This document shows, in pieces, positions 1-56,353 of a stretch of DNA of 64,000 nucleotides. The translations under genes were made by a program, and so were the position numbers. The notes below the pieces were generated by a model. That model saw nothing but the letters and a program-made list of their open reading frames with translations, had not been told where the DNA came from and did not search any database. How positions within the stretch are numbered: the first letter of the stretch is position 1; each line of letters opens with the position of its first letter. The DNA comes from Mustelus asterias (taxonomy: Eukaryota), in assembly GCF_964213995.1 (NCBI RefSeq), contig NC_135818.1:45694001-45758000 (forward strand). The letters are read 5' to 3'.

Positions 1-450
1 CGAGCCGTAACAAATGCTCAAAAAGCTAAAATTGCATTTGCCTCTGTAAAATGGAAATGGGAAAAATGACAGATACTGTGTTCTTTTCAGGAAGCCAGTT
101 GGTGAAAGAAAGTACTGGAACTAATTTTCAGTCTCACACTCATTTACAGAGTTAAATACAAATTCCTAACTCAACTACCCTACAATTTTACTAAGTGTAT
201 CTTTGAATGTGCCCAAGTGACGTCACAATTAATGCCTACCACCTACATATAATTAAATATATTTAATAATTAACACCATAATATAGTTGTTTTTATCTGT
301 ATGGGTGTACACTGGAGCACTGTATGGAGCTCTCACCTGTTGAAAATATTTTATGTTCAACTCGTACTTACGTTGACGGCAGTAAATAAATTAATATAAC
401 CAAAAAGTAAGCAAATCAACGTAACATTTTATTGAAAATCATATACTTAC

Positions 451-657
451 AAAGGGAATACAGCTTCCTGTGTACAATGCAATGTGTTGATATAATCGGG
501 ACTTGGATTATAAAGCATTGTATACCAGTCTGAAAGCATCTTCACATGGCAGGATCGGATTTTTAGCTGTCCCATTGGATCATTCACCAACAATGTAACA
601 ATAGCTGCAACAGTACATTCCAATAAGGCTGTCACATGCTGAAAAAGTGCACTGGAA
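451..657 (-). CDS. JKAMP: JKAMP coding exon 4 (gene continues beyond the left edge)
   Basis: Translates as SSSALFQHVTALLECTVAAIVTLLVNDPMGQLKIRSCHVKMLSDWYTMLYNPSPDYINTLHCTQEAVFPL, recognisably JKAMP. Acceptor tttttttctatag and donor gtaagt; phase 2 at both ends. Confidence 0.95.
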
Positions 658-914
658 CTATAGAAAAAAAAAGTATCAGTAATTGTTAAGATGAACTTCA
701 GTCTTTTCCTTGAAATACTGACAATAGATTTCACTTGCACCGTTATGGAGGAAATGCAAAGAAGGGAAAAAACCAAAAAAAGAGGCTTTTCTCATTAGGA
801 TGACGGGGATTTGGGGTGATTTAAAATTATGAAGGAATGCGATGGAGCTGATAGAAGCAGGCTTTTCACTGTGATAGGGGGAGATCTAGACCTCAGAAAA
901 TAGCAGATGTACAC

Positions 915-1170
915 AGCAAGAGGAGCAACCCAAGATAAAATACTGGAGGGGACATAGGGGAGATTGAGAGGACCAAACCTGGATAAATCATGGACTGAGA
1001 GTGGACCAGCGAGAGAAATGACCCTGGATGAAATGAGGAGTGAGAGCAGACCAGCGGGAGAGCGAGGGGAATGACCCAGATAAAACAAGGAGTGAGAGTG
1101 GACCAGTGGGAAAGCAAGAAGAGCAACTCGAGATAAAACAAAGACCATAAGCAGAGAGGCAAGAGAGTAA
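915..1170 (+). repeat. Degenerate purine-rich ~50-bp tandem repeat
   Basis: About five units resembling gacccagataaaacaaggagtgagagtggaccagtggga; resumes at 3061-3235. Confidence 0.55.
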
Positions 1171-3060
1171 GAGGGGTCATAGAGTCGTACAGCGCAGGAA
1201 AGGCCCTTAGGCCCATCACAGTCCAAAGATGTGCGGGTTAGGTTGATTGGCCAGGTTAAAAATTGCCCCTTAGAGTCCTGAGATGCGTAGGTTAGAGGGA
1301 TTAGTGGGTAAATATGTGGGGGTAGGGCCTGGGTGGGATTGTGGTCAGTGCAGACTCGATGGGCCGAATGGCCTCCTTCTGCACTGTAGGGTTTCTATGA
1401 TTTCTATGATTTGCATCGACAATAACTACCACTAAAGCCATGCTAATCCCATTTTCCAGCACTTGTCCCATATCCCTGAATGTTATGATATTTCAAGTGC
1501 TCATCCAAATACCATTTAAAGGTTCTAAGTTTTCCAGACTCCATTGCCTTTCCAGGCATCCCAGATTCCCAGCACCCTGAGTAAATCTTTTTCCCAAATC
1601 CCCATTGAATCTCCTCACCCTAAAACTATGCCCCCTCATGATTGACCCCTCAACCAAGGGGAATAGTGCTTCCTATTCACCCTGTCTATACCCCTCATAA
1701 TCTTATACACCTCAATCATGTCCCCTCTCAATCTTCTCTAAATAAAACAATCCAATCCTAATCAGTCTCTCCTTATAGCTCAAATGCTCCATCCCAGGCA
1801 ACATCTTGGTGAATCTCCTCTGTATCCCCTCTTGTGCAATCACATCATTCCTATAGCGAGGTGACCAGAACTACACACAGTACTCCAGTCGTGGGCGAGC
1901 TAACATTCTGTACAACTCCAACATAACATCCTTGCATTTATACTCTACGTCATGACTGATAAAAGGAAGTGTCCCATATGCCTTCTTAACTACCCTAGTC
2001 ACCTGCCCTGATACCTTCAAGGATCTGTGAATAGATACCCCACGATCTGAGCTTCCGAGTGTCCTGCCAGTCATTAAATACTCCCTTGTCTTATTACTTC
2101 TTCCAAAATGTATCACCTCACACTTATCAGGGTTAAATACCATTTGCCACTGCTCTACCCATCTGACAAACTTATCGATATCTTCACTATTAACTACTCT
2201 ACCAATCTTGGTGTCATCTGCAAACTTACTTATCATTTCCCCCCCACATTATGATCGATATCATCCATGTATATAACAAACAATAAGGACCCAGCACTGA
2301 ACCTTGTGGTATACCTCCAGTCACTCAAACAGCCTTCTACCACCGGCCTTTATGTCCTATTCCTAAGCCAGTTTTGGATCCATTTCGCCAAGTTTCCCTG
2401 AATTCCATGTGCCTCAACCTTCTCAATCAGTCTCCTGTGTGGGACCCTGTCAAAGGCTTTGCTAAAATCTTTCTGCTAAACTACATCGACTGCACTTCTC
2501 TCATCCACATATTTAATTACTTTTTGAAAAATTCTATTTGTTAGGCATGTCTTCCCTCTGACAAAGCCATGTTGACTATTCCCAATCAAGCCTATGCATT
2601 TCCAAATGGAGATTAATTCTCTTCTTCACAAGTTTCTCCAATAATTTGCCTACCATTGACATGAGATTCACTGGTCTGTAATTCCCTGGTTCATTTCTAC
2701 CACCCTTCTTGAAAAGGAGAATCACATTAGCCATCCTCCAATCCTCTGGCACTTCCCCGGTAGCCAGAAAGGAATTAAAAATTTGTGTCTGAGCCCCCGC
2801 AATTTCCTTCTTCACCTCCCACAGAGCCTGGGATGCAATTCATCTGGACTGAGGGATATGTCCATTTTTAAGCCCATCAAAGCCTAGCCTCCAATACCTC
2901 CTCACTTCTTATTTCAAACTGCTCAAGGTCTTCACAGTCCTTCTTCCTGAATTCTATACCTATGTTCTTCTTTACCTGAGTGAAGACCAATGAGAAATAT
3001 TCATGTAACACCCTTCCAATGTCTGCGGCTTCACAGACAGATTGCCCCTTTGATCCTACT
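1170..3060 (-). mobile_element. Degraded CR1 LINE with a V-SINE (1219-1410) in its tail
   Basis: ORF fragments [11 protein letters not shown]...RPRLEYCV and VPEDWRMANV...NYRPVNL. Confidence 0.85.
1219..1410 (+). mobile_element. HE1-type V-SINE, 5'-truncated
   Basis: cagtccaaagatgtgcgggttagg...ccttctgcactgtagggtttctatgatttctatg. Confidence 0.85.
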
Positions 3061-3299
3061 GACCCTGGACAAAACAAGTGAGAGAATGAATCATCGAGAG
3101 AAGCAACCCAGAATAAACCAAGTACTGAGGGTAGACCACTGGGAGAATGAGATGCGCGACCCACGTTAAGCCTAGGTGTGGAAGTGGACCTGTGGGAGAG
3201 GGATGGAAAAAGCAGCTTGGCCCAGAAGATCAAGGGGTACAATGAGTATGGATAGGGATTAAGAATAATTAAGATCAGAAATCCGGTGGGAGTAGTTTA

Positions 3300-5620
3300 A
3301 ATTAATTATCAATTATACCACATAATTGGGGATAATTGGAGCTTTTAACAAAGGCAATGAAATTATCACAGGGCTCTTAAATCTTCAAAAAGGCAAACAC
3401 AGTCTGGAAGATAAATTGGTGGAAAGCTATTGTTACAGTTGCCTAGAACAATGCAGTGTGGAAGCATCTAGGATACACAGGATATACAGCACAGGAGCAG
3501 GCCATTCAACATAGCCCATCCATGGCAGTGTTTATACTGCACTCCAGCCGTGTCTCATCTTTCCTAATCTAAATTTACCATCGTAACCATGAATATAATT
3601 CTCAAATGCATCTGTTCAATCCAAGCACTCCCAGTAGTAGCGAGTTCCACAGTGTTGAAAAATACTTGAAAAGTTAACTGGATTGAAGGTTGATAAATCT
3701 CCTGGATTAGGTGAACTACATTCCAGAATGTTAAAGGAGATTGCTATACAGACAGTGGATGCGTTGGTGGTAATCTTTCAAAATTCTATAGATTCTAAAG
3801 GGAGTCCTGCAGACTGGAAAGTAGCAAATGTAACTCCAGTATTTAAGAAGGGAGGGGGAATAGAGAAATATAGACTTGTTAGTTTGACATCAATAGTAGG
3901 GAAAATGTTAGAATCTATTATAAAGGATGTGATAAAAGGACATTTTGAAAACAATGGTATAATCAACATGGATTTATGGAAAGGAAATCATGTTTTATGA
4001 ACCTTTTGGAAGTTATTTGAGTCTATTACTTGTAGCATAGGTAAAGAAGAATGAGTGAATGTGGTGTATTTGGATTTTCTGAAGGCTTTTATAGGGTCTC
4101 ACACAGGAGGTTGGTAAACAGAATTAGAGCATATGGGATTAGAGGTAATATACCACAATGGATTAAGAATTAGTTAACAGACAGAAAGCAGAGAGAAGGA
4201 ATAAATGGGTCATTCTCAGGACAGCAAGCTGTTACTCAAGGGGTACCACAAAGATCAGTGCTAGGGCCACATCTATTCACAATCTATATAAATTTAGATG
4301 TGGGACCGTTTGTAATGTTTCAAAATCTGCTGATGAAACAAAACTAGATGGAAATGTAAGCTGGGAGCAAGATGCAACGAAGCTTTAAGCTTTGGACCGT
4401 CTAATGAGCAAAAACGTGGCAGTTGGAATATAACGTAAGTGTAAAGTTAGTCACTTTTGTAGAAAACACAAAGTCAGAATATTTCTTGAATGGTGGGAGG
4501 TTGGCAAGTGTTGGTGTCCAAAAAGTGTCCTTGTTCATGAGTCACTAGGGGGATTTGATTACAGAAGTTAAGGTGTCTTGCTGAAATCATAGAACCTTGG
4601 TGAGAGCACACCAGGAGTGTTGTGTACAGTATTGGTCTCCTTATCTAAGAAAGGAGATACCGGCCACAGAAGGACTGCAACAAAGCTTCATCAGACTAAT
4701 CTCTGGGATGTCAAGATTGTCTCACGAGAAGAGATTGAGGAAACTGGGCCTGTATTCTCTACAGTTTCAAAGAATGAGGGGTGATCTCATTGAAACATAC
4801 AGAGTGTGACATAGTAGGTACAGATAGGAGGTTTCTCTTGCTGATCAATCTAGAGCCAGGGGATACAGTCTCAGAATAAGGACAGGCCATTTAAGATTGA
4901 GATTAACTGGAATCTCTTTACTCAGAGGGTGGTGAATCTTTGGAACTTTTTACCTCAGTTGGGTGTGAAAGCTCAATCATTTGAGCAAGTTCAAGACAGA
5001 AATCAATCGACAGATTTCTATAGACTAATGCCATTAAAGGATAGCACAGGAAAATGGCACAGAGGTAGACAATCTGCCATGATCTAATTGAATAGTGGAG
5101 CAAGCTCGCCAGGCTGACTGACCTTTTGTTCCGATGTTCCTAATTGTATAGTATTGCATCCTATTCTGGTCACCACATTTTCGGGGGTGAGGGTGTAGTG
5201 AGGTTGCAGAGATTTACCAGAATGGTTTCGGGAATTAGGAACTTTAGCTTCAGGTTTGTTTGGACAAGCTGGGATTATTTGTCCTTAGAGCAAAGGCGGT
5301 TGAGGGGAGATTTTAGAGGTAAAGAAAATTACTACAGATTTAGATAAGGTAGACAAAGAAAAGCTGTTCCGATTAGCTGATATTATAAGGACAAGGGACA
5401 CAGATTTAAGGTTTTGGGCAAGCAATACGAGGGGGAGTGTGAGGAAGAACTCTTTTTTTTATGCAGCACATAGTAGTGATCTGGAACCTGCTGCCTATGA
5501 GAGTGATGGCAGTGGAGATGATCACAGACTTAGGGAACAGGTTTACAGGAGTGGGATTATCTGAACTGCTCAACAGAGAACTAGTATTGACTTGATGGGC
5601 CTCCTCTGCGCTGTTATGAC
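3300..5620 (+). mobile_element. Degraded CR1 LINE fragments
   Basis: KSPGLGELHSRMLKE...WKVANVTPVFKKG...YRLVSLTS, VQYWSPYLRK and SLEQRRLRGD. Confidence 0.85.
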
Positions 5621-6029
5621 TCAATTATGAATTACATGATGTATTGCTCCAGTCAACTTAAAACAATACATCATCTGACTTATCAGCCATTCCCAGCTCA
5701 CAAGTCAAAAAAATTCAATATTCACCAAACTAAAGCAATTGCATTTAAAATTATAACAAATGTTGTTGTAAAGCAGATCAGTAACAATGCAACAGCATTT
5801 TCAAGTTTAAGGAAATAAATAGTTGCACAGTGCCTGCCAGAAACTGAATTAAGATTGCTCAATCTTAGCCCCTTGCATCAACCAAAGTTGATTTTACCCC
5901 CTTATTCTCTGCTAATCTATCTCCTACAGGTGAAAGTCCAATGTTTAACCTCCTGTGACACCTACACATCCAAAAGGCAAAATATTGTAACAACAACATT
6001 TATGTTTATGTTTCTCAAATAATACTAAC

Positions 6030-6184
6030 CTCTTTTTGCCTGAATACCATTCAATAAAGAACCAATGCAAAACCAGAGGTAGCATTGCCATGAAGCCAAG
6101 ATACAGCCAGTCATATAGCTCTGGTGAATCCTCACATTTACGACAAATCTTCACAGCATCCGTTCTTTCCCCTCTTGGGCATAC
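6030..6184 (-). CDS. JKAMP: JKAMP coding exon 3
   Basis: VCPRGERTDAVKICRKCEDSPELYDWLYLGFMAMLPLVLHWFFIEWYSGKK. Acceptor ctgcag, donor gttagt; 155 nt, phase 0 to 2. Confidence 0.95.
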
Positions 6185-7514
6185 CTGCAGAGGATTTTTT
6201 AAGTTATATTAAATATTTAGGTTGCCAACTCTTCCAGTTTTAATACATGTAAATACATTTACAACATTTGTTTTAATTGGAAAGATATTGCAAATTCCCA
6301 ACTGTTAGCATTCGTAATAACTAGAGTTTAATCTCTTCAATCTCAATTTCTAAAATGATTTGAAGTGACAATGCTTATTGGTGACAGTAGTTATATTTAA
6401 TTTAGTATAAGTAAGACTTAACACATATTCATATTTGAGTAAAAGGATTAAAGTACAACAGCATTATCATTATAACCTAGGTAAAAACGGGATCTCCCGG
6501 TAACTACTCCCTAGGGTTGCCCCAGATACCGTCATGCCAGTCAATACGACACACAATATCTTGGAACTATATCATCATTCCTTCACTGTTGCTGGATCAA
6601 AATTCTGGAACTCCCTTCCAAGAACACTGAGTATTCCTACAACAAATCAACTACAGTGGTTCAAAAAGGCAGCATACCATCACCTTCTCTAAGGCAATTA
6701 AGAATGGACAATAAATGCTGGCCTAGCCAGCGATGCCCATATTCCGTGAACAAATAAACCTCTGTAATCTATGTGCTCAGGGAATCTCCTCTTATTCATT
6801 CTTTACACAGCAAAGAGACCAATTTAACACAATCATTATCTATTATTTGAATAGTCATTAAGTAAGGATGTCATTTGCCCATCTGCCCACTCAAGCCAAG
6901 TCAGACTTTAAAGATGTCTGACCTCCCGCACTCAAGACGCCTGTCAGTTTATAAACATTTCAATGCTGCACCCTGGTCAAAGCAAGGAAAACATAGTGGC
7001 CTTGATGCTCAATTTTGTCTCAGCTCTCCCCATATCTGGGTCTCAGAGTTTCTGCAAATATATTTTTCTTAGGTTTCATGCAGCAGCCTATCTGTTTTCG
7101 TGCTCCGCTAGATTTCTGCAGAAGTTTACCTTTTCACAATTTGATCAATGAAAGCCCAAACCACAATTGTCATCATATAACCCAACAGTTCCTTTCACCC
7201 AGGGTGTATTACAAGCAAGAATAAAATAGTTCAGTGTAAGATTAAGTATAACAATGAAATGCAAAAATGTACAGCATTGTATTAATATGGTGTATTGAAG
7301 CTATTTTTCATGAATTAGCAAAAGAAAAACCATCACAGGGATTTCCCAGGATTATTAGACAGTGACGTGGAGGATGAAACAAAAATCAAGCTGGAGTTTG
7401 AAATTAGATCAGAATGTAGTGAAGTAACAAAACAACACACAATTAATTTGTTTCTGAACTCAAACTACGAATCCTTCCATTTCACCAAAATCAGAGCCTG
7501 ACATCGCCTTGAAT

Positions 7515-7950
7515 ACTAAAAGAGAAAAATGTTGGAAAATCTCAGCAGGTCTGGCAGCATCTGTAAAGAAAGAAAAGAGCTGACGCTTCGAGTTTTGAAA
7601 CATCAGCTCTTTTCTCTCCTTACAGATGCTGCCCTCTTTTTAGGTCAAACCAAATAAACAAACTCAGATTAAGTCAGGACAAAGTAAAAGGGGCAGCTCC
7701 CCAAAAGGAGGGGGAACAGCCCGAACAGAAATCAAAGTACAAAGGAAACTTAAAAACATCAAATTAAAATGTGATTGTCAGGGTCAATAACGCACCCCAA
7801 CCCCTGCGGTGCCCAGCGGGCGCAGAAGGCGTCAACCGCACCCATGGACACCGCATGCTCCCTCTCCAGGGACACCAGACCGGCTGAGATTTTCCAGCAT
7901 TTTCTCTTTTGGTTTCAGATTCCAGCATCCACAGCAATTTGCTTTTATCA
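7515..7950. mobile_element. Inverted pair of Penelope-type terminal-repeat fragments, interrupted by a Tx1-like 3' end
   Basis: Arms 7553-7590 and 7596-7633 are reverse complements (33/38). The right arm resumes at ~7876. Confidence 0.65.
7634..7875 (-). mobile_element. 5'-truncated Tx1/L1-clade LINE 3' end
   Basis: Minus strand encodes VSLEREHAVSMGAVDAFCARWAPQGLGCVIDPDNHILI-stop, followed by a T-rich 3' UTR and an A-rich end; resembles Tx1-clade ORF2 C-termini. Confidence 0.55.
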
Positions 7951-8565
7951 CCTTGAATACTTGTAGTTTGAGTCCAGAAGCGAATCACTGCCAGGGTATT
8001 CAGTGACTCACATCTAACTCAGTTTCAAATTCCAGGATGAATTATTTCTCATTCAAATCAGGTAATCTACAAGCCTCCTCTGAACATGTAATCATGATCC
8101 TTTAAACACACATGAATAGAGTGTGATTTATATATTGAGTCATAAAATTAAATACTGCAGCACTGCATATTGAATTCTGTGCATAAATTAGCCCAACACT
8201 TCCAACTTGCAAATGTACAGTCAAAGCTAATTACAAAATTTAGGGTCTCTCAAAAGAAAACAATGCATGCCAGAGTCCAAGCATCAAATTTTTATGTCCA
8301 AAGCATGTTTGGAATGAAACATGGATTTAAGATTGTATGATCAATACATGTCCTGCATAATAAACAATCATTCACAGAATAAACTATTGTTATATCTTAA
8401 AGAATATGTGTTATATCCTGGATAAAAAATTGTTGCTTGGGTGGTAGTTCTCATGCAATTACCAAGCGGGGCCAGTGATCTTTAAATACCAGTCCTACAC
8501 TACGATTATTAAGTACTATCAAATTTACTGAATGCAAGAATAGCAAAAAGTGCCAAAGAACTTAC

Positions 8566-8654
8566 CCCACAGTCTCCATACTGTGTCTGACTATCATTTC
8601 TGCTTTCTATTATTGATTTTCCACAGTATAATCCAGGGCACATCAGTTCAACAT
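8566..8654 (-). CDS. JKAMP: JKAMP coding exon 2
   Basis: (D)VELMCPGLYCGKSIIESRNDSQTQYGDCG matches the JKAMP N-terminal CxGLYCGK...YGxCG motif. Acceptor tttcag, donor gtaagt; 89 nt, phase 1 to 0. Confidence 0.93.
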
Positions 8655-9283
8655 CTGAAATCATTAACATTAAAAAAAAGATTGCTTCAACTGTTAAATT
8701 AATTTTACTACAAAGATTGTACAAAAATATTTTTATATATACCATTTATAAATAACTGGACCATCGAAACAGCATTTACTGAGTATAGTATCATGGAACC
8801 ATAGCAACAGTCCATGGCAGTCAAAAGCAAAACAACTCCAGTAACTGCAGTCATATCTGACACAATGGAAGGTTGTCAGAGGGCACTCATCACAGCCCTT
8901 GAAGAGTTTCTCAGGGAGTGTCAATGGTCCAAACAACTACAGATGCTTCAGCAAAGTCTTCCCTCCTTTATAAGGTCAGATTCCACAGTACTCAACTCTA
9001 TTCAGGAAGCATCCCATTCCGGTCTACTTTAGGATCTGGAGAAGATTCAGATTTGGGCTTAGAAATAGCAGATAATATTTGTGCCCACATAAATGCCAGG
9101 CAATAATCTTATCAAAAATACCCAACCATCTCCCCTTGACCTTTATTTTTGGGCTCTCCAATGAGGATCATCATTTACCAGAGGCTAAACAGGACCAGTA
9201 ATATTAACCAAGCAATCTGAGATGAGTGACTCATCCAGACCCATGAAAGCATCTCCACCATTTTAAAAGGTTGATGTCAAGAG

Positions 9284-10716: not shown

Positions 10717-11068
10717 TTAGACAGTCAGGCTAAAAATTGAAAGCTCATGCCTGAGGGTTTCAACACCTGATGAACTGAAGCCAAATTGGCTCTATCCTCT
10801 CTCCACAGATGCTGTCAGACCTGCTGAGATTTTCTAGCATTTTCTGTTTTTTGTTTCAGATTCCAGCATCCAAAGTAATTTGCTTTTATTACAGATATTA
10901 TGACAATGGGTCGGTTAAAAATTCTAATCACATTTTTCACTTATTATTTAATTTAATATTTTAAATGAAATAATAGTTGTGTTTTGATTTATTTTAACCC
11001 CCTGTTGATCCTGGACTCTGTCCTGTTTTCACTCAGTCTGGCCTGAAAGGACATTGTCAGCTCCTTAC

Positions 11069-11072
11069 CCAT
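11069..11072 (-). CDS. JKAMP: JKAMP coding part of exon 1 (ATG G)
   Basis: Minus strand reads ATG G|gtaagg. Phase 1 joins exon 2 to give MDVELMCPGLYCGK, and the site lies in the GC-rich promoter head-to-head with L3HYPDH. Confidence 0.8.
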
Positions 11073-11193
11073 TGCGCTAATCCAGCAGCCGCCATTCCAG
11101 AGTCACCCACTTCCGCTCGCCGCCCACTTCCGGCAGCTTTGACCTTTACCCTTTGCCCCCCGGGGGCTGGCCGGTAGGTCACTGAGATCCCGG
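11073..11193. promoter_or_regulatory. Bidirectional CpG-rich promoter shared by JKAMP and L3HYPDH
   Basis: Only 121 bp separate the divergent ATGs. Contains two ETS/GABP-type CACTTCCG(G) motifs (11108-11115, 11125-11133), a YY1-like GCCGCCATT (11088-11096) and tandem DR1-like half-sites (11140-11159). CpG-rich sequence extends to ~11720. Confidence 0.8.
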
Positions 11194-11677
11194 ATGGAGC
11201 TGCTGTTGAGAGCGCCGCCGGGCCTGGGCTCCCCGCTCTCGGTGCTGGACATGCACACGGGCGGGGAGCCGCTGCGGATCGTCACCGGCGGCTTCCCCCC
11301 GGTGCTGGGGGACGACATCCTGAGCAAGCGGCGCTACGCGCGGGAGCGGCTGGACGGCCTGCGCCGGAGGCTGCTGCTGGAGCCCCGCGGACACTCGGAC
11401 ATGTACGGGGCGCTGCTGGTGGGCTCGGAGCGGCCGGACGCTCACCTCGGGGTCCTCTTCATCCACAACCAGGGCTACAGCACCATGTGCGGCCACGCCG
11501 TCCTGGCGCTCGGCCGCTTCGCCCTGGACTACGGGCTGGTCGCCCAGCCCAGCTCCCCCGAAAGCCAGGTCAACATCCACTGCCCCTGCGGCCTGGTCCG
11601 GACTTTCGTGCAGTACGACCGGGGCAAGAGCGGCCGCGCCCGCTTCCTGAGTGTCCCCGCATTCGTCTTCGCTACAG
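11194..11677 (+). CDS. L3HYPDH: L3HYPDH (proline-racemase family) exon 1
   Basis: Contains DMHTGGEPLRIV, EPRGHSDMYGA and YSTMCGH (catalytic Cys99 at 11488-11490). Donor ACAG|gtggga, phase 1. Confidence 0.96.
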
Positions 11678-11766
11678 GTGGGAGTGAGAGGCCAGCTGGG
11701 CACGGCCTCTGCACCGTGACAGCCTGCAGTCAGCACTTTTTAAAATGTCTTAGAGTGAATCAAATT

Positions 11767-12081
11767 CACAGAATCATAAAATCCTACAGTGAGGCAATTC
11801 GGCCCATCGGGACTGCACTGGCAACAATCCCACCCCATACCCTATCCCCATAACCCCATGCATTTACCCTGTGAATCCCCTTGGCACTAAGGGGCATCTT
11901 AGCATAGCCAATCCACCTAACCCGCACATCTTTGCAGCGTGCAAGGAAACTGGAGCACCCGGAGGAAACCCACGCAGACACGGGGAGAATGTGCAAACTC
12001 CACACAGGCCGTGACCTGAGGCCGGAATTGAACCCGGGTCCCTTGCGCTGTGAGGCAGCAGTGCTAACCACTGTGCCACCC
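11767..12081 (-). mobile_element. HE1-type V-SINE
   Basis: tRNA-like head (TGGCACAGTGG A box, GGTTCAATTCC B box), V-domain and CR1-like tail. Confidence 0.9.
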
Positions 12082-12139
12082 TCGATAATATCACTAGACC
12101 ATCCTGCCCTGCTCCCATTCCAAAATTATGTAGATATGG

Positions 12140-13098: not shown

Positions 13099-13268
13099 AT
13101 GTTGCTGTTGATGTACCAGGACATGGGAAGATTGTAGTGGACATTTCATATGGAGGTGCTTTTTATGCATTTGTGAGTGCAGATCATTTTGGTTTGGATG
13201 TTCGTTCCTCCAGGATCCGCAATCTTGTAGATGCAGCAGTAACTGTAACTAATGCTGTGGCAGCACAG
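13099..13268 (+). CDS. L3HYPDH: L3HYPDH exon 2
   Basis: (D)VAVDVPGHGKIVVDISYGGAFYAFVSA...AVAAQ. Acceptor tcttgcag, donor gtacgt; 170 nt. Confidence 0.95.
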
Positions 13269-13775
13269 GTACGTAGAGAAGCCAAATATATTTCTGATTT
13301 GATCAGTATTTCCTCCTCACAATCTGATTGCAAATTAGTTTTGCCCCTCATTTTCTCAGAGGCTGGAATTGTAGCCATGTGTCTTTTTCATTGAGACTGG
13401 ATTCCTCCTGCCTCAAAACTGAGAATGAGTTCCTGAAAACATTTTTATTTAATTATAGTTTTCAAACCTAATTGACAGTCAGGAATTGTGCTTTTAATGA
13501 AAATTTAGGCAAAAATCCAACATGCTGTTCTGTGTTCAACCTCCCCAGACCATGCACTTGTGGGAACTCAACATAAAGATCTGACAACTTTACACACCTT
13601 TTGTACCCAGGAACAATGCAGGAACTTAAACTGTTGCAGATCGGGTTTGGAATTGGCATAACTTGCCAAGCAGGCCTATGGAGCTTGATCCATTATTTTA
13701 TGACTAAAATATTTTCCTGAATATCCCATAAAGCATTAAGAATGATTACTTGTACATTCTGGAGTTAGTAATATT

Positions 13776-14122
13776 TCATAGAATCATAGAAACCCTACAG
13801 TACAGAACGAGGCCATTCGGCCCATCGAGTCTGCACCGACCACAATCCCACCCAGGCCTGACCCCCATATCCCTACATATTTACCCACTAATCCCTCTAA
13901 CCTCTGCATCTCAGGACACTAAGGGCAATTTTTAGCGTGGCCAATCAACCTAACCCGCACATGTTTGGACTGTGGGAGGAAACCGGAGCACCCGGAGGAA
14001 ACCCACGCAGACACGAGGAGAATGTGCAAACTCCACACAGACAGCGACCAAAGCCGGGAATCGAACCTCGGTCCCTGGAGCTTTGCGGCAGCAATGCTAA
14101 CCACTGTGCTACCGTGCCGCCC
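13776..14122 (-). mobile_element. HE1-type V-SINE
   Basis: Full-length copy with the same head, body and tail. Confidence 0.9.
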
Positions 14123-15153
14123 TGATATTTGCATCAGGGTTGAATTTTTCAGTTTCCTAAGTTACTAACCAGATATAAAAACAATGTTCACTTTAAATTT
14201 TCTTCAAGTACATCAATGCTAGTGCAGCAGTTCGGAACTTTATTCCCCCAGACTAGCCCCCCTTGTGCCTTCCACCTGGTCTCCAAAACCTAACCTGAGC
14301 TCCCAACCTTCCCTCCCCATCCTCGTTATTGTTATTCCAATTCCTCCCTGCCCAAGACATTAAGACTTGACTTAATCCAGCCTCTATGACAGATCTTCCT
14401 GGGGACTCCCTTGAGCAGGAGCCAATACTAGCATCTGCCCCAGTGGAACAACTCAGTTGACATCCAATCAGATTGGATGCTCTCAAGGGTGGGATTTCCT
14501 CTCCCTGAGGGGCAGAAGTCCCACACTCACCTCATTATCACTGTAAGACAGCCCATGGGACTGACTTTTCTACCAGGGGTGGGGTGTATATCTTTGGCCG
14601 GTCAGTTCTGATGGGAATGATCTCTCCCTTCCTTTGGAGTCGAGTTTTTCCATCTCAGGCTCCAGGGACGTGTGGAGAATTCTTAAAAGATCGATTACCT
14701 ACCTTCTGTGGTTTTCTTCATTGCTAAAAATAATACAGGGGACATATATGCTTTCATTTACTTTTGGTCCAATGAGCCAGTGTGTGCATAAGAATTTTAT
14801 TCTGGGCAACTGAGCAGATTGGTGTCACTCAATGTCAGCTCAAACCTATTCCACGAGGAGACATTACCCACAAAATGGTTTGTCCAGAATTCACTCTCAC
14901 TCAATTTTGGCCTCTGAAGAGTATGTAATTTTAAAGAAACCTACCATCTGGTTGATTTTTTTTATTGTTTAATTCTAATTTAACTACTTTCATACGACTA
15001 GTTCACCTAGTACACATTTTGAGATTCTGAAGAGCACTTAAATATAACAACTATTAAAACAGACTTGGTGTTGGTATCTACCAAAAAAACAACTATTGCT
15101 ATTGATGCAATAAATTAATATCAAACTCTGCTCAATAATTTTTGTTTTTACAG

Positions 15154-15276
15154 GTTAAACTCCACCACCCTGACAGTGAAGACCTGGCCTTCCTCTATGG
15201 CACTATATTAACTGATGGCAAAGATGTGTTTTCTGAAGAGCCAACAGCAAATATCTGTGTTTTTGCAGATGCTCAG
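15154..15276 (+). CDS. L3HYPDH: L3HYPDH exon 3
   Basis: VKLHHPDSEDLAFLYGTILTDGKDVFSEEPTANICVFADAQ. Acceptor tttttacag, donor gtgggt; 123 nt. Confidence 0.95.
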
Positions 15277-15946: not shown

Positions 15947-16084
15947 GTTGACAGAAGTCCCTGTGGCTCGGGTGTGACAGCTCGTATTGCACTGCAGTAT
16001 CACAAAGGATTAATTCTGCTGAATCAGACCAGGACATTTCAGAGTGGTCCAACAAGCTCGCTCTTCACAGCAAAAGCTGTAGAG
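15947..16084 (+). CDS. L3HYPDH: L3HYPDH exon 4 (absent from the ORF track)
   Basis: Manual translation: VDRSPCGSGVTARIALQYHKGLILLNQTRTFQSGPTSSLFTAKAVE. Acceptor gaatag, donor gtgatt; 138 nt, phase 0 at both ends. Confidence 0.95.
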
Positions 16085-21141: not shown

Positions 21142-21267
21142 GAAACACAATGTGGCGATTTCAAAGCTGTTATAGTGGAAGTGTCAGGGCAAGCACATTA
21201 CACTGGAACAGCAAGATTTTACGTGGAAGATGATGATGACCTGAAAGACGGGTTTCTTCTCAAATAA
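21142..21267 (+). CDS. L3HYPDH: L3HYPDH exon 5 (terminal coding exon)
   Basis: ETQCGDFKAVIVEVSGQAHYTGTARFYVEDDDDLKDGFLLK-stop after a strong polypyrimidine acceptor. Spliced CDS totals 1041 nt = 346 aa. Confidence 0.95.
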   Translation, partial: ETQCGDFKAVIVEVSGQAHYTGTARFYVEDDDDLKDGFLLK

Positions 21268-27200: not shown

Positions 27201-27958
27201 CACTCACATCAATCCTCCCCATGACTAAATGCTCAATGCTAAAACACCTCCGGAGCCCGGACTGCAACCCAACCAACAACAAAAAGAATCCACCGCAAAA
27301 TACACAATAATACAATCCATCAGCTGCATCCTGGTGCAGTTCCGCTGTAGGTGGGCGGTGTTTACGTCATGACCATGATCATGTGATCCTCAGGTCATGT
27401 GACTGGTCTTTTGTTTTCTCTGTCTCTGGCCACTGGCTGCAGATCGGTGGAGCTCCTGCTACTCATGTAAGTTCACTTATTTTATAGCATGCTCCATTCG
27501 TTCATTCATTAATGTGCGCTCTGCTCAAAGGCAGGGGCTTGCTTCATTGATGCTTCATCCTGGGCTGTTTGCTTGGCAGATTTCTTTTTTGTCAGTGGTG
27601 GTTTGTCCTTACCTTCCACTCTGAGGGGCAGCTCCCAGAATCTAGACTGGGAAACGAGCCCACGCCGGTGCTGTTCTGAATGTCACGCCTAATCAAATGT
27701 TCTTTCTGATGCCACAGGGTTACAGCCGCTGTTTGAAGAGATACCAACCCGTGGGAAATCATGCATAGAAATTGTGCAAGTGATGGGGATGGTGGTGAGA
27801 GGGCTTCCCCCCTGGAGCCTCTGCAGCCCGAGCCAGAACCAGGCACCAGGGCCTGTAACCCGCATTCACCTGCAGCCGTTTCCATCGCCGGTTGTGTATC
27901 GCTGTTAGGAAGGAGCAAGTGATGAATCCTCCACTTTGTGGATGTGTCGTTCAGCCTA

Positions 27959-29266
27959 ATGGATCTTTCCACCGAGATTCCACTGTTATACAACCTCACG
28001 GAAACCAACAGCTCAGACACGCCAGTCACCTCGCCCACTGTGATCAGCAACCAAACTGGGGCAGCTCAGCAGGACCAAGCCAGTGGGCAGCCTCACACAA
28101 ACTCCCTGCTCTATGGCATGGCCATGGCTTCCAAAGCTCTCATCCTCCTGCTGATTTTCCTGTTGTCCTGTCTGGGCAATTCGGCCGTCATTGTGATGAT
28201 CATCAAGCACCGGCAGCTGAGGACAGTGACCAATGCCTTCATCATGTCCCTGTCTCTGTCCGACCTCCTCACTGCCCTGCTGTGTGTGCCCTTCTCCTTC
28301 ATCATGCTCTTCACCCAGGAGGGGATTTGGATCTTTGGCGACCAGTTTTGCATCGCCAATGGCTTCTTCAACTCTTGCTTTGGGATTATCTCCACCCTCA
28401 CCATGACCCTCATCTCTTTTGATCGTTACTATGCAATCGTCAGGCAGCCCCAGGAGAAGATTGGCAGGCGTAGGGCCACCCAGCTGTTGGTTGCTGTCTG
28501 GCTGACTGCAGTCCTGTTCTCTTTCCCCTGGTATCTCATCTCACAAGTCCAGGGTCCACTGATAGTCCACAAGAAGGGGTTCTACCACTGCATGTACATC
28601 TTCCACTCGGGCAGCTCCCGCATGGGCACAAGTTACAGCATCACCCTGATTGTTATCTGCTACCTTCTGCCTTTCTCTTTGATGTGCTTCTGCCACTACA
28701 ACATCTGTAAGACAGTGAGGCTGTCAGAGATTCGGGTGCGTCCAGTCACCACCTACGCCCATCTACTGCGCTTCTACAGTGAGATGAGGACGGCTACAAC
28801 TGTGCTGATCATGATCGTCTTCATCATCTGCTGCTGGGGCCCCTATTGCATAATGGGCATCATCACAGCCACTGGCAACTTCCACTTCACCCCCATCATG
28901 GACACTGTCGCCATCTGGCTGGCTTGGGCCAACGGAGCCCTCAATCCGCTCATCTACGCCACTAGAAACCCGAACATCTCCATGCTCTTGGGCAGGAATA
29001 GGGAAGATGGCTACAGGACTAGAAACATAGCAGCCTACTTGTCCAACCAGAGCCATGAGGCCAGGAGCAGGGTGGACAGGTTAAGGGATCGATATGTCAG
29101 CCGGCAGGGTTCCGGCAGCAGGATGTCTTCCTCCAGCCCGGCAAATGGAGATGTTGCAATGTGGGCCTGTAAAAACCCAGCCGTGCTCTTCTGCAGAGAT
29201 GGACAACCCGACACAGTGTCTGAGCTCATTGTTCCCAAATCACAGACTGCGGACACGAGTCTTTAA
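27959..29266 (+). CDS. GPR135: G protein-coupled receptor 135 (class A orphan GPCR), 435 aa, single coding exon
   Basis: 7TM protein with GN, LSLSD, DRY, CWGP and NPLIY motifs. Characteristic segments [34 protein letters not shown] and [10 protein letters not shown]; synteny with L3HYPDH/JKAMP. First in-frame ATG is at 27959 (the ORF track starts at a GTG). Confidence 0.96.
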
Positions 29267-45262: not shown

Positions 45263-47695
45263 TAGAACATAGAACATAGAACAGTACAGCACAGAACAGG
45301 CCCTTCGGCCCACGATGTTGTGCTGAGCTTTGTCTGAAACCCAGATCAAGCTATTTCCTCCCTATCATCCCGAAGTATTCCATGTGCCTATCCAATAGCT
45401 TCTTAAATGTTCCTAAAGTTTCTGACTCCACTATCCCTGCAGGCAGTCCATTCCACACCCCAACCACTCTCTGAGTAAAGAACCTACCTCGGACATCCTT
45501 CCTATATCTCCCACCATGAACCCTATAGTTATGCCCCCTAGTTACCGCTCCATTCACCCGAGGAAATAGTCTTTGAACGTTCACTCTATCTATCCCCCTC
45601 ATCATCTTATAAACCTCTATCAAGTCTCCTCTCAACCTCCTCCGCTCCAAAGAGAAAAGCCCAAGTTCCCTCAACCTTTCCTCATAAGACCTACCCTCCA
45701 AACCAGGCAGCATCCTGGTAAATCTCCTCTGCACTCTTTCCAGTGTCTCCACATCCTTCTTGTAGTGAGGTGACCAGAACTGCACACAATATTCCAAATG
45801 TGGTCTCACCAAGGTCCTGTACAGTTGCAGCATAACCCTACGGCTCTTAAACTCAAACCCCCTGTTAATGAACGCCAACACACTATAGGCCTTCTTCACG
45901 GCTCTATCCACTTGAGTGGCAACCTTCAGAGATCTATGGATATGAACCCCAAGATCTCTCTGTTCCTCCACATTCTTCAGAACCCTACCTTTGACCCTGT
46001 AATCCACATTTAAATTTGTCCTACCAAAATGAATCACCTCGCATTTGTCTCCATTTGCCATTTTTCAGCCCAGCTCTGCATCCTATCTATATCTCTTTGC
46101 AGCCTACAACAGCCCTCCACCTCATCCACTACTCCACCAATCTTGGTGTCATCAGCAAATTTACTGATCCACCCTTCAGCCCCCTCCTCCAAGTCATTTA
46201 TAAAAATGACAAATAGCAGAGGACCAAACACTGATCCCAGTGGCACTCCGCTGGTAACCGGTTTCCAGTCCGAAAATTTTCCATCCACCACCACCCTCTG
46301 TCTTCTGTTAGATAGCCGGTTACCTATCCAATCGACCAAACTTCCCTCTATCCCACACATCCTTACTTTCTTCATAAGCTGACCGTGGGGGACTTTATCA
46401 AACGCCTTACTAAAATCCATGTCCATGACATCAACTGCACTACCTTCATCTACACACTTAGTTACCTCCTCAAAAAATTCTATCAAATTTGTGAGGCAAG
46501 ACTTGCCCTTCACAAATCCGTGCTGACTATCCCGGATTAAGCTGCATCTTTCTAAATGGTCGTAAATCCTATCCCTGAGGACCTTTTCCATCAACTTACC
46601 GACCACCGAAGTAAGACTAACCGGCCTATAATTACCAGGGTCATTTCTATTCCCTTTCTTAAACAGAGGAACCACATTCGCCACTCTCCAGTCCTCTGGC
46701 ACCACCCCCGTGGACAGTGAGGACGCAAAGATCAATGCCAAAGGCTCTGCAATCTCATCCCTTGTCTCCCAAAGAATCCTAGGATATATTTCATCAGGCC
46801 CAGGGGACTTATCAACTTTCAGTTTATTCAAAATTGCTAGTACATCTTCCCTCCGAACATCTACTTCCTCCAGCCTATCAGCCTGTGACACCATCTCTTC
46901 CTCAAAAACATGGCCCCTCTCCTTGGTGAACACCGAAGAAAAGTATTCATTCATCACCTCTCCTATCTCTTCTGACTCCATGCACAAATTCCCACTACCG
47001 TCCTTGACCGGCCCCAGCCTCACCCTGGTCATTCTTTTATTCCTCACATAAGAGTAAAAAGCCTTGGGGTTTTCCTTGATCCGACCCGCCAAGGACTTCT
47101 CATGCCCCCTCCTAGCTCTCCTAAGCCCCTTTTTCAGCTCATTTCTTGCTAACTTGTAACCCTCCATCGAGCCAACTGAACCTTGTTTTCTCAACCTAAC
47201 ATACGCTTCCTTCTTCCTCTTGACAAGACATTCCACCTCTTTTGTGAACCATGGTTCCCTCACTCGGCCATTTCCTCTCTGCCTGGCAGGGACATACCTA
47301 TCAAGGACACGCAGTATTTGTTCCTTGAAAAAGTTCCACTTATCATTAGTGCCTTTGCCTGACAATTTTTGTTCCCATCCTATGCTTCCTAATTCCCGCC
47401 TGATTGCATCATAATTACCTCTCCCCAATTGTAAACTATGCCCTGCCGTATGGCCCTCTCCCTCTCCTTTGCAATAACAAAAGACACCGAATTGTGGTCA
47501 CTATCTCCAAAGTGCTCTCCCACAACCAAATCCAACACTTGGCCCGGCTCATTTCCCATTACCAAATCCAATGTGGCCCCACCTCTTGTCGGCTTATCCA
47601 CATATTGTGTCAGGAATCCCTCCTGCACACACTGCACAAAAACTGCCCCATCCGAACTATTCGACCTATAAAGGTTCCAATCAATATTTGGAAGT
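45263..47695 (-). mobile_element. Relatively young 5'-truncated CR1 (HER1-like) LINE, ORF2 split by frameshifts
   Basis: ORFs 47389-47811, 46034-47428 and 45351-46061 contain LDLV/SDH endonuclease motifs, [32 protein letters not shown] and RPHLEYCVQFW, plus a (TTCTATG)n tail. Confidence 0.93.
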
Positions 47696-52452: not shown

Positions 52453-54771
52453 CAATGAGTTTGTAGATATGGTTCTTTATTTTACAAATTCTCCATTAGT
52501 CTCCTCTTACTCAGAAACATCAAACATCAATCACCATCATCCCCCCCAGACTTTGAGAATTATCACGAGTCTACAGGATAACAAGTATAGCCAGGATTTC
52601 CAGAGCTCAAGTTACTTTTAACCTGGGCATTTTTACTCCATCCCTCTATTAGACTTTTAAGTTCAAATCTATTTTCAATACGCACTTGGCTACTTCTGCC
52701 ACCATGTCTCAATGAACGAGAATCAACTCAAATCAAGTACACTGCTGAAGTAAGAACCATCTGCTGTCCATTTATTACAAATCTCCTCCCTAAACCATGT
52801 TAATTCATAAAATTCAAATGGACTTAAGGATACCATGGAAACCCATGTTGTATCTGTATTAAATCCAGGGCAGGAAGTTCAGAGTTTGGAAGCTTTTCTT
52901 TTGATGACCAAATGATAGGTACATTTCAAACAAATTTAATCTGTCAATAAATGATAAACAGTGTCTGTAAGGTTGCTGGATTGCATATAAATGACAACCA
53001 AGGACTAACGACTTAAAATGTTTCACTTTGCGTTCTTCAGCAACCCTTAGAGTGTGGTTATGCAAGGGAGAACTCCCAGGCTCCTGACATGTCACATCAT
53101 GTGTACAGGTCATCTCAACATGCACATGAACACCCAGACTACAGCTTCCCCATTTTCGTTGGGATGTCCCGTATCTGCACGCACGTGACAATGTTAGATG
53201 GTGGTAACAGGACATAATGCCCACAGCACAGACTTGGACCACCAAACCTGGTGCAAAACCAACACAACACTTCCAGCCCTTTTTCTTTTATAAAACACAG
53301 CCCATATGTACACCAAGTCAGTACATAGTCCTTGAGCTTGGAGCTTGTTCTGCTCCGCCATCCCAAGTGTGTAATTGTAACAGTTGGTTCTGCTGGGGAT
53401 GCACCCAGATTGTTGTCCACTGGGCAGGTGGCATCGGGTGTGCCTAGGCTGTGTACAATGGCTGCAGAGTTTGTTGTGTTGGTGTCTGGAGGGGCGTCCT
53501 TCACCACTGCTGCAGGCGGTGCAGATTGTGAACTCGACATGTTAAGCCCTGTAGTAGGGTGATGGTGCTGGTTCGGGACCTGTAACAAATGCGCCAGTTC
53601 TTGACATAGAAACCACCATCTCAGGCAAGCACATAATGGTTTGGTTAGGGGACATGGCTCTGGACCACTGGCATTTTGTTACAGTTGCATATGGTTTGCA
53701 CTCTGACTGGCCCTATTCTAAAGTGCAGAGTCTGCGGGCGTTGCAATCATTATATCTTTTCCCTCTTCGTCACTGTTTCATGAGGGCTCCACCCACATTT
53801 GTTCCCACTTTGGGTTACAGAAGTGCCTTGGCGACAGGGATCATGGTTCTGGTATGTCTGGAAAACATTCTATCTGCTGACAGGGGCAGGGCCTGTCTAG
53901 AAATCAGTGTAGACATCAGTGTTGACACAGACATTTTTCAAGGAAGTGCTTTACTGAGTATATTGCCTGCTCTGCCAAACCATAACTGTGGTTAGAGGGG
54001 GCTGCATGTAATGTGTTCAAAGTCTCAAATGTGTGCAAAGTCCTGGAACCCCCTGGAGGCAAACTGCCAGGTGTTGTCTGTCAGCATCCTCTGGGGAATG
54101 CCATGTGTAGCGAAGTGTCTCTTCAGCTTTCCACTCACTGTGATGTTCTTCATGTCGAGCAGATGGTCGACTTCATACCAGCCTGAGCATGAAATCGACA
54201 AGAGCCAGATGTTGTTTCCCATTCCATTTGAATGGATCTGCCACTGAGCAACCATGGAAGGTCTGGGACCCCCTGGAGGTGCAGTGGTTCATTGGTTTGA
54301 TGAGGCTTGATCATGTTGCATGGCACACATCTGGACACTTTCATCTCTATGTCTGCATATGTTGAAGGCTGGTACATGGTTTTTTTTGCCCTACACTTTG
54401 TTGCTTCCATCCCTGGGTGTCCTTGGTGGAGTTGCTAGGTGCAGAACCTCTGCAGAGAAGTAGGGATGACAAACCACTGGCCGCACAGTATCAGTCCGTC
54501 TCGCACGGTTAACTCCTCTCGCACGGTGCAAAGGTCATGGGGAAGCTCCTTTGACATCACGGGCCATCCTGACATAATGATTCCTGGAGCTGCCTGCATG
54601 CGTGAACTGAGTTCCTCAATTCTGCAGGATGACAATACTTGAATCACAACAATATCAATGTCCTCATTCTTGATCGGTGGTGGGTAGGTAAGCCTGAAGA
54701 GGGCAACTGCAAGGTACATCTCTTTAGTGCACTTGTAAATGACAGAGAGGTTGTAGTGTTGTAGCTTTTTT

Positions 54772-55095
54772 AATTCATTCATGGAATATGAGCATTGCTG
54801 GCTGGGCTAGCATTTGTTGCTCAATCTGAATTGTCCTTGGACTGTTTGGCCATTTAAGAGTCAACCACATTGCTGGTGATCTGGAGTCACACATTGGCCA
54901 GACCAGGTAAGGACGGCAGATTTCCTTCCCTCAAAGACATTAGTGAACCAGATGGGATCTCACGATAATAGTTTCATGGTCGTCATTAGACTTTTTAATT
55001 ACAAATGTTTATTGAATTTAAATTTCACCCGGAGCATTAAACTGGGTTTCTGGATTACGAGCCCAGTGAGAATACCACTGCGTCACCGCCTCCCA
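54772..55095 (-). mobile_element. tRNA-derived SINE, second family (inside the Gypsy element)
   Basis: Reverse complement of the 23906 copy. Confidence 0.75.
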
Positions 55096-56072: not shown

Positions 56073-56353
56073 TCAGTGGCACAGTGGTTAGCACTGCTGC
56101 CTCACAGTGCCAGGGACCCGGGTTCGATTCCCGGCTTGGGTCACTGTCTGTGCGGAGTCTGCCTGTGTCTGCATGTGTTTCCTATGGGTGCTCCGGTTTC
56201 CCCCAACAGTCCAAAAGACGTGCTGGTTAGATGCATTGGCCATGCTAAATTCTCCCTCAGTGTACCCGAACAGGCGCCGGAGTGTGGCAATTAGGGGATT
56301 TTCACAGTAACTTTACTATGGTGTTAATATAAGCCTACTTGTGACACTAATAA
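56073..56353 (+). mobile_element. V-SINE with alternative 3' tail (inside the Gypsy element)
   Basis: Same tail as the 10421 and 62940 copies. Confidence 0.8.

What the first reader, a model, noticed from the sequence alone, without database searches (positions are those of the whole stretch)
15947..15976. Shark L3HYPDH has a racemase/epimerase-type Cys/Cys active site (DRSPCGSG) instead of the dehydratase Cys/Thr pair
Seen: exon 4 reads GTT GAC AGA AGT CCC TGT GGC TCG GGT = VDRSPCGSG, placing Cys265 at 15962-15964. Exon 1 supplies Cys99 in MCGH (11488-11490). The gene is otherwise intact, with canonical splice sites and no stops. Established: human L3HYPDH (trans-3-hydroxy-L-proline dehydratase) uses Cys104/Thr273 (DRSPTGSG), whereas proline racemases and hydroxyproline 2-epimerases use two cysteines (MCGH and DRSPCG). 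The engineered human T273C mutant is reported to lose dehydratase activity and gain 3-hydroxyproline epimerase activity. A Thr codon (ACN) differs from TGT by at least two bases, so a single sequencing error is unlikely. Inference: this may be a natural vertebrate (hydroxy)proline 2-epimerase or racemase, implying D-(hydroxy)proline metabolism or a different route for collagen 3-Hyp catabolism in cartilaginous fish.
Basis: partly seen in the sequence, partly recalled or inferred. Interest (0 to 1): 0.85.

Follow-up and report, generated by a model that had tools for sequence, protein, structure and literature searches.

The report
Shark hydroxyproline enzyme with swapped catalyst
In every shark, ray and chimaera sequence examined, the enzyme that breaks down a collagen-derived amino acid (3-hydroxyproline) has a cysteine where bony vertebrates have threonine, which probably lets it also flip that amino acid to its D-form, although no shark enzyme has been assayed.

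Summary
The five-exon gene encodes an intact 346-aa protein with Cys99/Cys265, identical to NCBI's Mustelus asterias L3HYPDH. It is not an error or a one-species change: 11 of 11 chondrichthyan clusters (9 genera, chimaera included) carry Cys; 0 of 102 bony-vertebrate sequences do. Hemichordates, echinoderms, a brachiopod, a priapulid and related bacteria have Thr; molluscs gained Cys independently (AU p=0.0009).

The rest of the pocket (Tyr71, Tyr184, Tyr233-Gly234, Phe255) is dehydratase-type, which argues against a proline racemase or 4-hydroxyproline epimerase. The human Thr-to-Cys mutant is cited as a 3-hydroxyproline epimerase. However, a Bacillus Cys/Cys protein with the same six pocket residues appears to belong to a group reported as dehydratases, and a Ser/Cys enzyme is bifunctional.

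Best reading: a trans-3-hydroxy-L-proline enzyme that gained 2-epimerase activity and probably kept dehydration (0.5); pure epimerase 0.25; dehydratase only 0.17. No paper on the shark variant was found, but the key 2012 paper was unreadable. New variant of a known family; directly testable.

The parts
11194..11677 (+). L3HYPDH exon 1 (ATG to codon 162); holds Tyr71 and MCGH
   Evidence: matches 7QPO at E 1.8e-63
11404..11406 (+). Tyr71 (R1 specificity site; Phe in proline racemases, Val/Ser in 4-Hyp epimerases, Tyr76 in human)
   Evidence: sequence; alignment; PMC1964878 passages
11488..11490 (+). Cys99, first catalytic cysteine (MCGH)
13099..13268 (+). exon 2; holds Tyr184 (human Tyr192)
15154..15276 (+). 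exon 3; holds Tyr233-Gly234 (15196-15201) and Phe255 (15262-15264), dehydratase-type pocket residues
15947..16084 (+). exon 4; VDRSPCGSGV motif
15962..15964 (+). Cys265 (TGT), second catalytic position; Thr in bony vertebrates
21142..21267 (+). exon 5 to stop (TAA)
11069..11193 (.). short G+C-rich stretch between the probable JKAMP start (ATG at 11072-11070, minus strand) and the L3HYPDH start; two CACTTCCG motifs at 11108 and 11125; likely bidirectional promoter
   Evidence: sequence; (GC 0.68, CpG o/e 0.79 over 11000-11700); promoter role and ETS-site label are inference/recall
450..8660 (-). exons of a JAMP-family gene (JKAMP), head-to-head neighbour
   Evidence: Pfam PF05571 at 450-665 and 6026-6190; 8560-8660 read by eye
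27926..29266 (+). single-exon rhodopsin-family GPCR downstream, same strand (GPR135 by recall)
   Evidence: gene name recalled

Best explanation
This is the chondrichthyan orthologue of L3HYPDH, in which the ancestral Thr at the second catalytic position became Cys on the cartilaginous-fish stem. It still binds trans-3-hydroxy-L-proline in a dehydratase-type pocket. Cys99 removes the alpha-proton. The carbanion can then lose the 3-OH to give pyrroline-2-carboxylate, as in the human enzyme, or take a proton from Cys265 on the opposite face to give cis-3-hydroxy-D-proline. Most likely it does both (dehydratase/2-epimerase). Because epimerisation is reversible and dehydration is not, net flux would still run to pyrroline-2-carboxylate and L-proline, and the D-epimer would also become degradable. 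Shown: gene, residues, distribution, fold. Inferred: all chemistry and physiology.
For: Cys in 11 of 11 chondrichthyan clusters and 0 of 102 bony-vertebrate sequences (97 Thr; 4 isoforms without the motif; 1 Ala). Thr in 8 of 8 non-mollusc invertebrates and 12 of 12 close bacterial relatives. Y71, M98, Y184, Y233, G234, F255, S267, D69 and R262 are invariant in the chondrichthyan rows that have them and are the consensus of bony vertebrates; human Y76, M103, Y192, Y241, S275, D74, R270 are the pocket or closure residues in PMC9309405. The model (pLDDT 92) is closest to the human and Thermococcus dehydratases. The human Thr-to-Cys mutant shows T3LHyp epimerase activity (PMC3958920 passage). PA1255 (Ser/Cys) does both reactions on this substrate (PMC5144071 text and supplement). 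A BC_0905-type Bacillus protein is Cys/Cys, shares Y/C/Y/YG/F with the shark enzyme and lies beside an ornithine-cyclodeaminase-family gene; PMC4113996 says purified members of the Bacilli cluster with that neighbour catalyse dehydration. No Thr-type chondrichthyan protein appeared among the 120 listed hits of any of three searches, so keeping dehydration would explain how the pathway survives.
Against: No assay exists for any chondrichthyan protein. I could not read the primary human-mutant data or Tables 1-2 of PMC4113996, so the epimerase/dehydratase ratio of both models is unknown to me. The link between my Bacillus locus and the assayed cluster is indirect (primer matches and neighbour gene; another species; 36% identity to the shark protein). 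Invariance of Cys265 among chondrichthyans is weak evidence of selection: 223 of 341 columns are invariant across 8 genera. Each homology search listed only 120 of 4,239 to 7,976 hits, so a Thr-type paralogue is not excluded.
Confidence: 0.5

Rival explanations
1. Pure 3-hydroxyproline 2-epimerase: dehydration is lost, cartilaginous fish make cis-3-hydroxy-D-proline and clear it by another route such as D-amino acid oxidase.
For: Secondary sources say the human enzyme is converted to an epimerase by this one change and that Cys-to-Thr converts an epimerase into a dehydratase (PMC8142540). The human enzyme is by far the closest assayed relative. The published rule is Cys-Cys = racemase/epimerase.
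Against: No passage read states that dehydration is lost. Cys-bearing natural relatives are reported to dehydrate this substrate. No Thr paralogue was seen to take over catabolism. No data on D-hydroxyproline in sharks turned up.
Confidence: 0.25
2. [quoted passage not shown]
For: The pocket is otherwise unchanged. Cys and Thr alternate repeatedly among proteins with the Tyr71/Tyr233-Gly234 pocket (20 Cys, 46 Thr), even between two abalone proteins. The Bacilli cluster is reported as dehydratase.
Against: The same swap in the human orthologue gives epimerase activity. The column is Thr in all 97 intact bony-vertebrate sequences, so it is not a freely drifting site. The change needs two base substitutions.
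Confidence: 0.17
3. Proline racemase or 4-hydroxyproline 2-epimerase making D-Pro or cis-4-hydroxy-D-Pro.
For: Both catalytic Cys motifs are present; Phe255 matches the racemase site 5.
Against: R1 is Tyr, not Phe/Val/Ser; R2 is Gly, not Cys/Leu/His. Cys/Cys proteins with Tyr or His at R1 showed neither activity (PMC1964878). The tree places the protein inside the dehydratase clade, apart from racemase-type pockets. NCBIfam ranks the dehydratase model first, all below cut-off.
Confidence: 0.05
4. Catalytically weak or dead protein kept for another role (human L3HYPDH has a reported antiviral activity).
For: PMC10875296 reports anti-EV71 activity and leaves its link to catalysis open.
Against: All pocket residues are conserved and branch lengths are ordinary (stem 0.12).
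Confidence: 0.03

Closest known systems
[quoted passage not shown]
   Same: Orthologue: best sequence and fold match, same pocket residues, same second Cys that forms the regulatory disulphide (shark C132, human C137), JKAMP-family neighbour.
   Different: Cys265 in place of Thr273; Gln93 where most bony fish have Glu (human Asp98 per PMC9309405).
Engineered human Thr273Cys mutant (Visser et al. 2012, PMID 22528483; known to me only through citing passages)
   Same: Same catalytic pair in the same scaffold; cited as 3-hydroxyproline epimerase.
   Different: Here the change is natural and shared by sharks, rays, a skate and a chimaera; activity unmeasured.
Bacillus cereus-group BC_0905-type proteins (inferred to be the 'navy' cluster of PMC4113996)
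   Same: Cys/Cys pair with the Y/C/Y/YG/F pocket; cluster reported as t3Hyp dehydratase.
   Different: 36% identity; bacterial, next to a cyclodeaminase-family reductase gene; SPCGTGT rather than SPCGSGV; separate origin of Cys in the tree.
Pseudomonas aeruginosa LhpL/PA1255, bifunctional t3Hyp dehydratase/2-epimerase (PMC5144071)
   Same: Cys at the second position; both reactions on the same substrate, the behaviour proposed here.
   Different: Ser/Cys pair, distant subfamily, low dehydration efficiency.
Proline racemase (T. cruzi 1W61, EC 5.1.1.4) and 4-hydroxyproline 2-epimerase (EC 5.1.1.8)
   Same: Fold, MCGH and DRSPCG motifs, two-cysteine proton transfer.
   Different: Specificity residues R1 and R2 differ; about 32% identity or less.
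Molluscan L3HYPDH-like proteins
   Same: 16 of 17 sequences are Cys/Cys in the same clade.
   Different: Independent origin, several copies per genome, and some carry further changes towards the racemase pattern (Y71F in 5 of 15, V269T in 5 of 15) that sharks lack.

Membership tests
Proline racemase superfamily (Pfam PF05544) | Profile match above gathering score and two-domain fold | tested here: met
   351 bits against cut-off 27; TM 0.87-0.94 to 7QPO, closed chains of 6R76, and 1W61
L3HYPDH orthologous group | Falls inside the jawed-vertebrate L3HYPDH clade | tested here: met
   27 jawed-vertebrate rows form one branch, 92/100
L3HYPDH orthologous group | Conserved neighbourhood JKAMP - L3HYPDH - GPR135 | tested here: met
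   JAMP-family exons upstream on minus, single-exon GPCR downstream; the human order and the name GPR135 are recalled
[quoted passage not shown] | Cys/Thr catalytic pair | tested here: not met
   Cys99/Cys265
[quoted passage not shown] | Pocket Tyr76, Met103, Tyr192, Tyr241, Ser275, Asp74-Arg270 (human numbers) | tested here: met
   Y71, M98, Y184, Y233, S267, D69, R262
[quoted passage not shown] | Forms pyrroline-2-carboxylate from trans-3-hydroxy-L-proline | not testable with these tools
   needs an assay
Proline racemase (EC 5.1.1.4) | MCGH and DRSPCGxG with both cysteines | tested here: met
Proline racemase (EC 5.1.1.4) | Phe at R1 (T. cruzi Phe102) and Cys/Leu at R2 | tested here: not met
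   Tyr71 and Gly234; the R2 register is read from the ungapped alignment to 7PB3
Proline racemase (EC 5.1.1.4) | NCBIfam NF010576 above cut-off | tested here: not met
   276 against 556; prokaryotic model, and the Thr-type coelacanth protein also misses every cut-off, so weak evidence
4-hydroxyproline 2-epimerase (EC 5.1.1.8) | Val/Ser at R1 and His at R2 | tested here: not met
   Tyr71, Gly234
3-hydroxyproline 2-epimerase or bifunctional dehydratase/epimerase | Thiol on the face opposite the first base, in a 3-Hyp pocket | tested here: met
   By alignment to 1W61 Cys300 and 7QPO Thr273; atom distances in the model were not measured
3-hydroxyproline 2-epimerase or bifunctional dehydratase/epimerase | Forms cis-3-hydroxy-D-proline | not testable with these tools
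   needs an assay

The most novel reading that the evidence does not exclude
Cartilaginous fishes as a class replaced the vertebrate 3-hydroxyproline dehydratase with a true cofactor-independent amino-acid epimerase, have no Thr-type backup, and so make cis-3-hydroxy-D-proline from collagen turnover as an endogenous D-imino acid; molluscs reached the same switch independently and some copies went further towards proline racemisation.
Probability: 0.25. Interest if true: 0.75.

Novelty: new variant of a known kind. Interest (0 to 1): 0.55.

Why it matters
Vertebrate L3HYPDH is described as a Cys/Thr dehydratase, and the lack of the second cysteine is why vertebrates are thought to have no proline-racemase-type activity (PMC1964878). 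A whole vertebrate class carries the natural version of the laboratory switch mutant. If it epimerises, it is a candidate vertebrate two-cysteine, PLP-free amino-acid epimerase and predicts a D-imino acid in shark tissue; the database name 'dehydratase' would be incomplete for sharks and most molluscs. If it only dehydrates, the one-residue rule used to annotate this family fails in its closest natural test. Either result comes from one cheap assay. The likely physiological weight is modest, since 3-hydroxyproline is a minor collagen residue.

Tried and rejected
Sequencing or assembly error: rejected, 9 genera agree.

Pseudogene or relaxed gene: rejected; intact frame, invariant pocket, ordinary branch lengths.

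Contaminant or transferred bacterial racemase: rejected; introns, JKAMP-family neighbour, position inside the vertebrate clade.

Single origin of Cys shared with molluscs: rejected, log-likelihood 72.7 lower, p-AU 0.00086 (LG+G4 without mixture; groups named before the test but after the tree was seen).

Cys as the ancestral animal state: less parsimonious, but untested with lamprey, hagfish, tunicate or amphioxus, none of which appeared among the listed hits. The gene tree nests chondrichthyans among bony fish on weak branches (85/79), against the accepted species tree, so its inner vertebrate order should not be trusted.

Co-changes in the pocket: 9 chondrichthyan-diagnostic columns; only 265, and perhaps 93, touch residues named as functional.

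More species from within the 90% clusters, and names for the unnamed representatives, could not be obtained.

Literature: 0 papers hold both 'L3HYPDH' and 'shark' or 'proline racemase' and 'shark'. Searches were too loose and returned irrelevant papers; one search listed nothing on shark D-proline. Visser 2012 is not held and may already mention Cys-type animal homologues. Tables 1-2 and supplements of PMC4113996 were not visible and bear directly on the Bacillus argument. Metagenome and viral contig collections were not searched.

Full report
Observation. The window holds a five-exon gene on the plus strand (11194-11677, 13099-13268, 15154-15276, 15947-16084, 21142-21267) with AG/GT intron ends. 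It encodes 346 residues, with MCGH at 98-101 and DRSPCG at 261-266; Cys99 is TGC at 11488-11490 and Cys265 is TGT at 15962-15964. The protein is identical to NCBI's 'trans-L-3-hydroxyproline dehydratase' of Mustelus asterias. Human L3HYPDH (7QPO) is the best PDB match (E 3.8e-162) and has Thr at the aligned site; proline racemases 1W61, 7PB3 and 6J7C have Cys. JAMP-family exons lie head-to-head upstream and a single-exon GPCR downstream, which is the human neighbourhood as I recall it.

Distribution. Of the 120 hits listed I used the 107 with organism names. All 11 chondrichthyan clusters (Mustelus, Carcharodon, Chiloscyllium, Heptranchias, Narcine, Pristis, Hemitrygon, Rhinoraja, Callorhinchus; two genera with two isoforms) are Cys/Cys. 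Of 95 bony-vertebrate clusters 90 are Cys/Thr, 4 are isoforms without the motif, 1 has Ala and also lacks MCGH, and none has Cys. With seven more the count is 97 Thr of 102. Three hemichordates, three echinoderms, Lingula, Priapulus and 12 of 12 close bacterial proteins have Thr. Molluscs are the surprise: 16 of 17 sequences have Cys, often in several copies; one abalone protein has Thr. Amniotes other than human, cyclostomes, tunicates and amphioxus were not among the listed hits.

History. A 64-row tree built without column 265 gives chondrichthyans 100/99, molluscs 98/88 and jawed vertebrates 92/100, and needs three changes. Forcing sharks and molluscs together is rejected (p-AU 0.00086). 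With Thr in the outgroups, the simplest reading is a Thr-to-Cys change on the chondrichthyan stem, another in molluscs and one reversal or paralogue in abalone. A gain earlier in chordates with reversal in bony vertebrates costs one more step and is not excluded. A wider quick tree (101 rows: 18 named, one Bacillus, and 82 of 150 representatives; 68 dropped for length, missing motifs or a mammal-like motif) shows that among proteins with the Tyr71/Tyr233-Gly234 pocket 46 have Thr and 20 have Cys, on several separate branches. The switch is recurrent in this clade.

The pocket. Apart from residue 265, the shark site is that of the dehydratase: D69, Y71, M98, Y184, Y233, G234, F255, R262 and S267 are invariant in the chondrichthyan rows that have them and are the consensus of bony vertebrates. 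They match the human residues named in PMC9309405 (parts 1-2 of 6, Discussion and passages read). The AlphaFold model (pLDDT 92, pTM 0.90) is closest to the human and Thermococcus dehydratases. PMC1964878 (passages and first part of Results) shows that two cysteines are not enough: racemases need Phe at R1, 4-Hyp epimerases Val/Ser at R1 and His at R2, and Cys/Cys proteins with Tyr or His at R1 had neither activity. The shark has Tyr71 and Gly234. A proline racemase or 4-Hyp epimerase is therefore unlikely, and the substrate should remain trans-3-hydroxy-L-proline (inference).

What the cysteine does. For epimerisation: passages in PMC3958920, PMC10875296 and PMC8142540 cite Visser 2012 for the human Thr-to-Cys mutant being a 3-hydroxyproline epimerase. 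I saw nothing of that paper, and none of the passages says dehydration is abolished. For retained dehydration: PMC4113996 (passages and one section; Tables 1-2 not held) reports that purified proteins of a Bacilli cluster with a cyclodeaminase-family neighbour catalyse dehydration. Its Bc0905 forward primer found one exact match in the genome collection, in Bacillus dicomae; the Bc0905 reverse and Bc0906 forward primers match the same locus with 2 and 1 mismatches. That gene is Cys/Cys, shares Y/C/Y/YG/F with the shark enzyme, is 36% identical, and is followed by a cyclodeaminase-family gene. PMC1964878 also lists both Bacillus anthracis homologues as Cys/Cys. The link from this locus to the assayed proteins is indirect. 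PMC5144071 (passages and supplement passages) shows that PA1255, a Ser/Cys enzyme, is both dehydratase and 2-epimerase for this substrate. I recall curated records calling some Bacillus cereus-group proteins bifunctional; I could not check this.

Mechanism. Shown: residues, conservation, fold. From family knowledge (PMC4113996; PMC4364671, parts 1, 3, 4 of 5): racemases use two opposed cysteines for a 1,1-proton transfer, and the dehydratase uses one base whose conjugate acid helps the 3-OH leave. Inferred: in sharks Cys99 makes the carbanion, which partitions between loss of water and protonation by Cys265 from the other face. Epimerisation is reversible and dehydration is not, so a bifunctional enzyme would still drain 3-hydroxyproline to proline and would add salvage of the D-epimer. 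This fits the absence of a Thr-type shark protein among the listed hits, though those lists were truncated. I put bifunctional at 0.5, pure epimerase at 0.25, dehydratase only at 0.17, racemase or 4-Hyp epimerase at 0.05 and non-catalytic at 0.03; some epimerase activity therefore has about 0.75. Against adaptive readings: 223 of 341 columns are invariant among eight chondrichthyan genera, so fixation alone does not show selection for a new function.

Novelty. The family, both reactions and the switch mutant are known. A natural Cys/Cys L3HYPDH across cartilaginous fishes was not found in print in the held library: no paper holds 'L3HYPDH' with 'shark' or 'proline racemase' with 'shark'; broader searches (listings only) showed none. 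Subscription papers, including Visser 2012, were out of reach. Passages of PMC8779045, PMC4417235 and PMC4141209 describe the animal enzyme as a dehydratase or restate the Cys-Thr rule. Verdict: a real, class-wide, apparently unreported variant of a known enzyme; the function is open but one assay decides it. Interest 0.55.

Noticed in passing
protein hits P0002, P0121, P0123, P0127, P0128, P0132, P0135, P0139, P0140, P0157, P0173, P0326-P0330: Molluscan L3HYPDH-like proteins are Cys/Cys (16 of 17), expanded to several copies in scallops and clams; some also have Tyr71Phe (5 of 15) or Val269Thr (5 of 15), changes towards the proline-racemase pattern. Candidates for molluscan D-proline formation.
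   Followed up: partly
P0139 and P0160: Two close abalone proteins differ at the switch: Haliotis asinina Cys, H. cracherodii Thr. Recent reversal or paralogues; a natural pair for assay.
   Followed up: no
L001:1773-2777 and 2797-3774: BC_0905-type Bacillus protein is Cys/Cys although its cluster appears to be the one reported as t3Hyp dehydratase; conflicts with the Cys-Thr annotation rule.
   Followed up: partly
P0134, P0159 and JGI proteins: Proteins of Magnetovibrio, Kiloniella and metagenome bacteria are about 60% identical to animal L3HYPDH and sit in an unresolved fork with the animal sequences, hinting at gene transfer; direction not tested.
   Followed up: no
window 11069-11193: About 120 bases separate the probable JKAMP start from the L3HYPDH start, in a CpG-rich stretch with two CACTTCCG motifs; an out-of-frame upstream ATG (11095-11093, minus strand) precedes the JKAMP start.
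   Followed up: partly
window 11470-11472 (codon 93): Gln93 is fixed in 11 of 11 chondrichthyan clusters where most bony vertebrates have Glu; the human equivalent Asp98 is described as stabilising the open conformation. Possible co-change.
   Followed up: no
window 45354-47497, minus strand: Long reverse-transcriptase frames (Pfam RVT_1) of a LINE-like element (CR1-type by recall); similar decayed pieces near 1500-3000.
   Followed up: no
window 54028-56903, minus strand: Fragments of an LTR-retrotransposon-like pol (RVT_1, Integrase_H2C2, rve), broken into short frames. One search scanned 61 of 117 frames beyond 29300 and found no other gene family.
   Followed up: no
window 11750-12085 and 13775-14125: Two copies of a short interspersed repeat in introns 1 and 2, with related copies elsewhere in the window (seen by eye).
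   Followed up: no
P0098 (Sinocyclocheilus anshuiensis): Has Ala at the switch position and lacks MCGH; probably a decaying duplicate or a faulty gene model.
   Followed up: no
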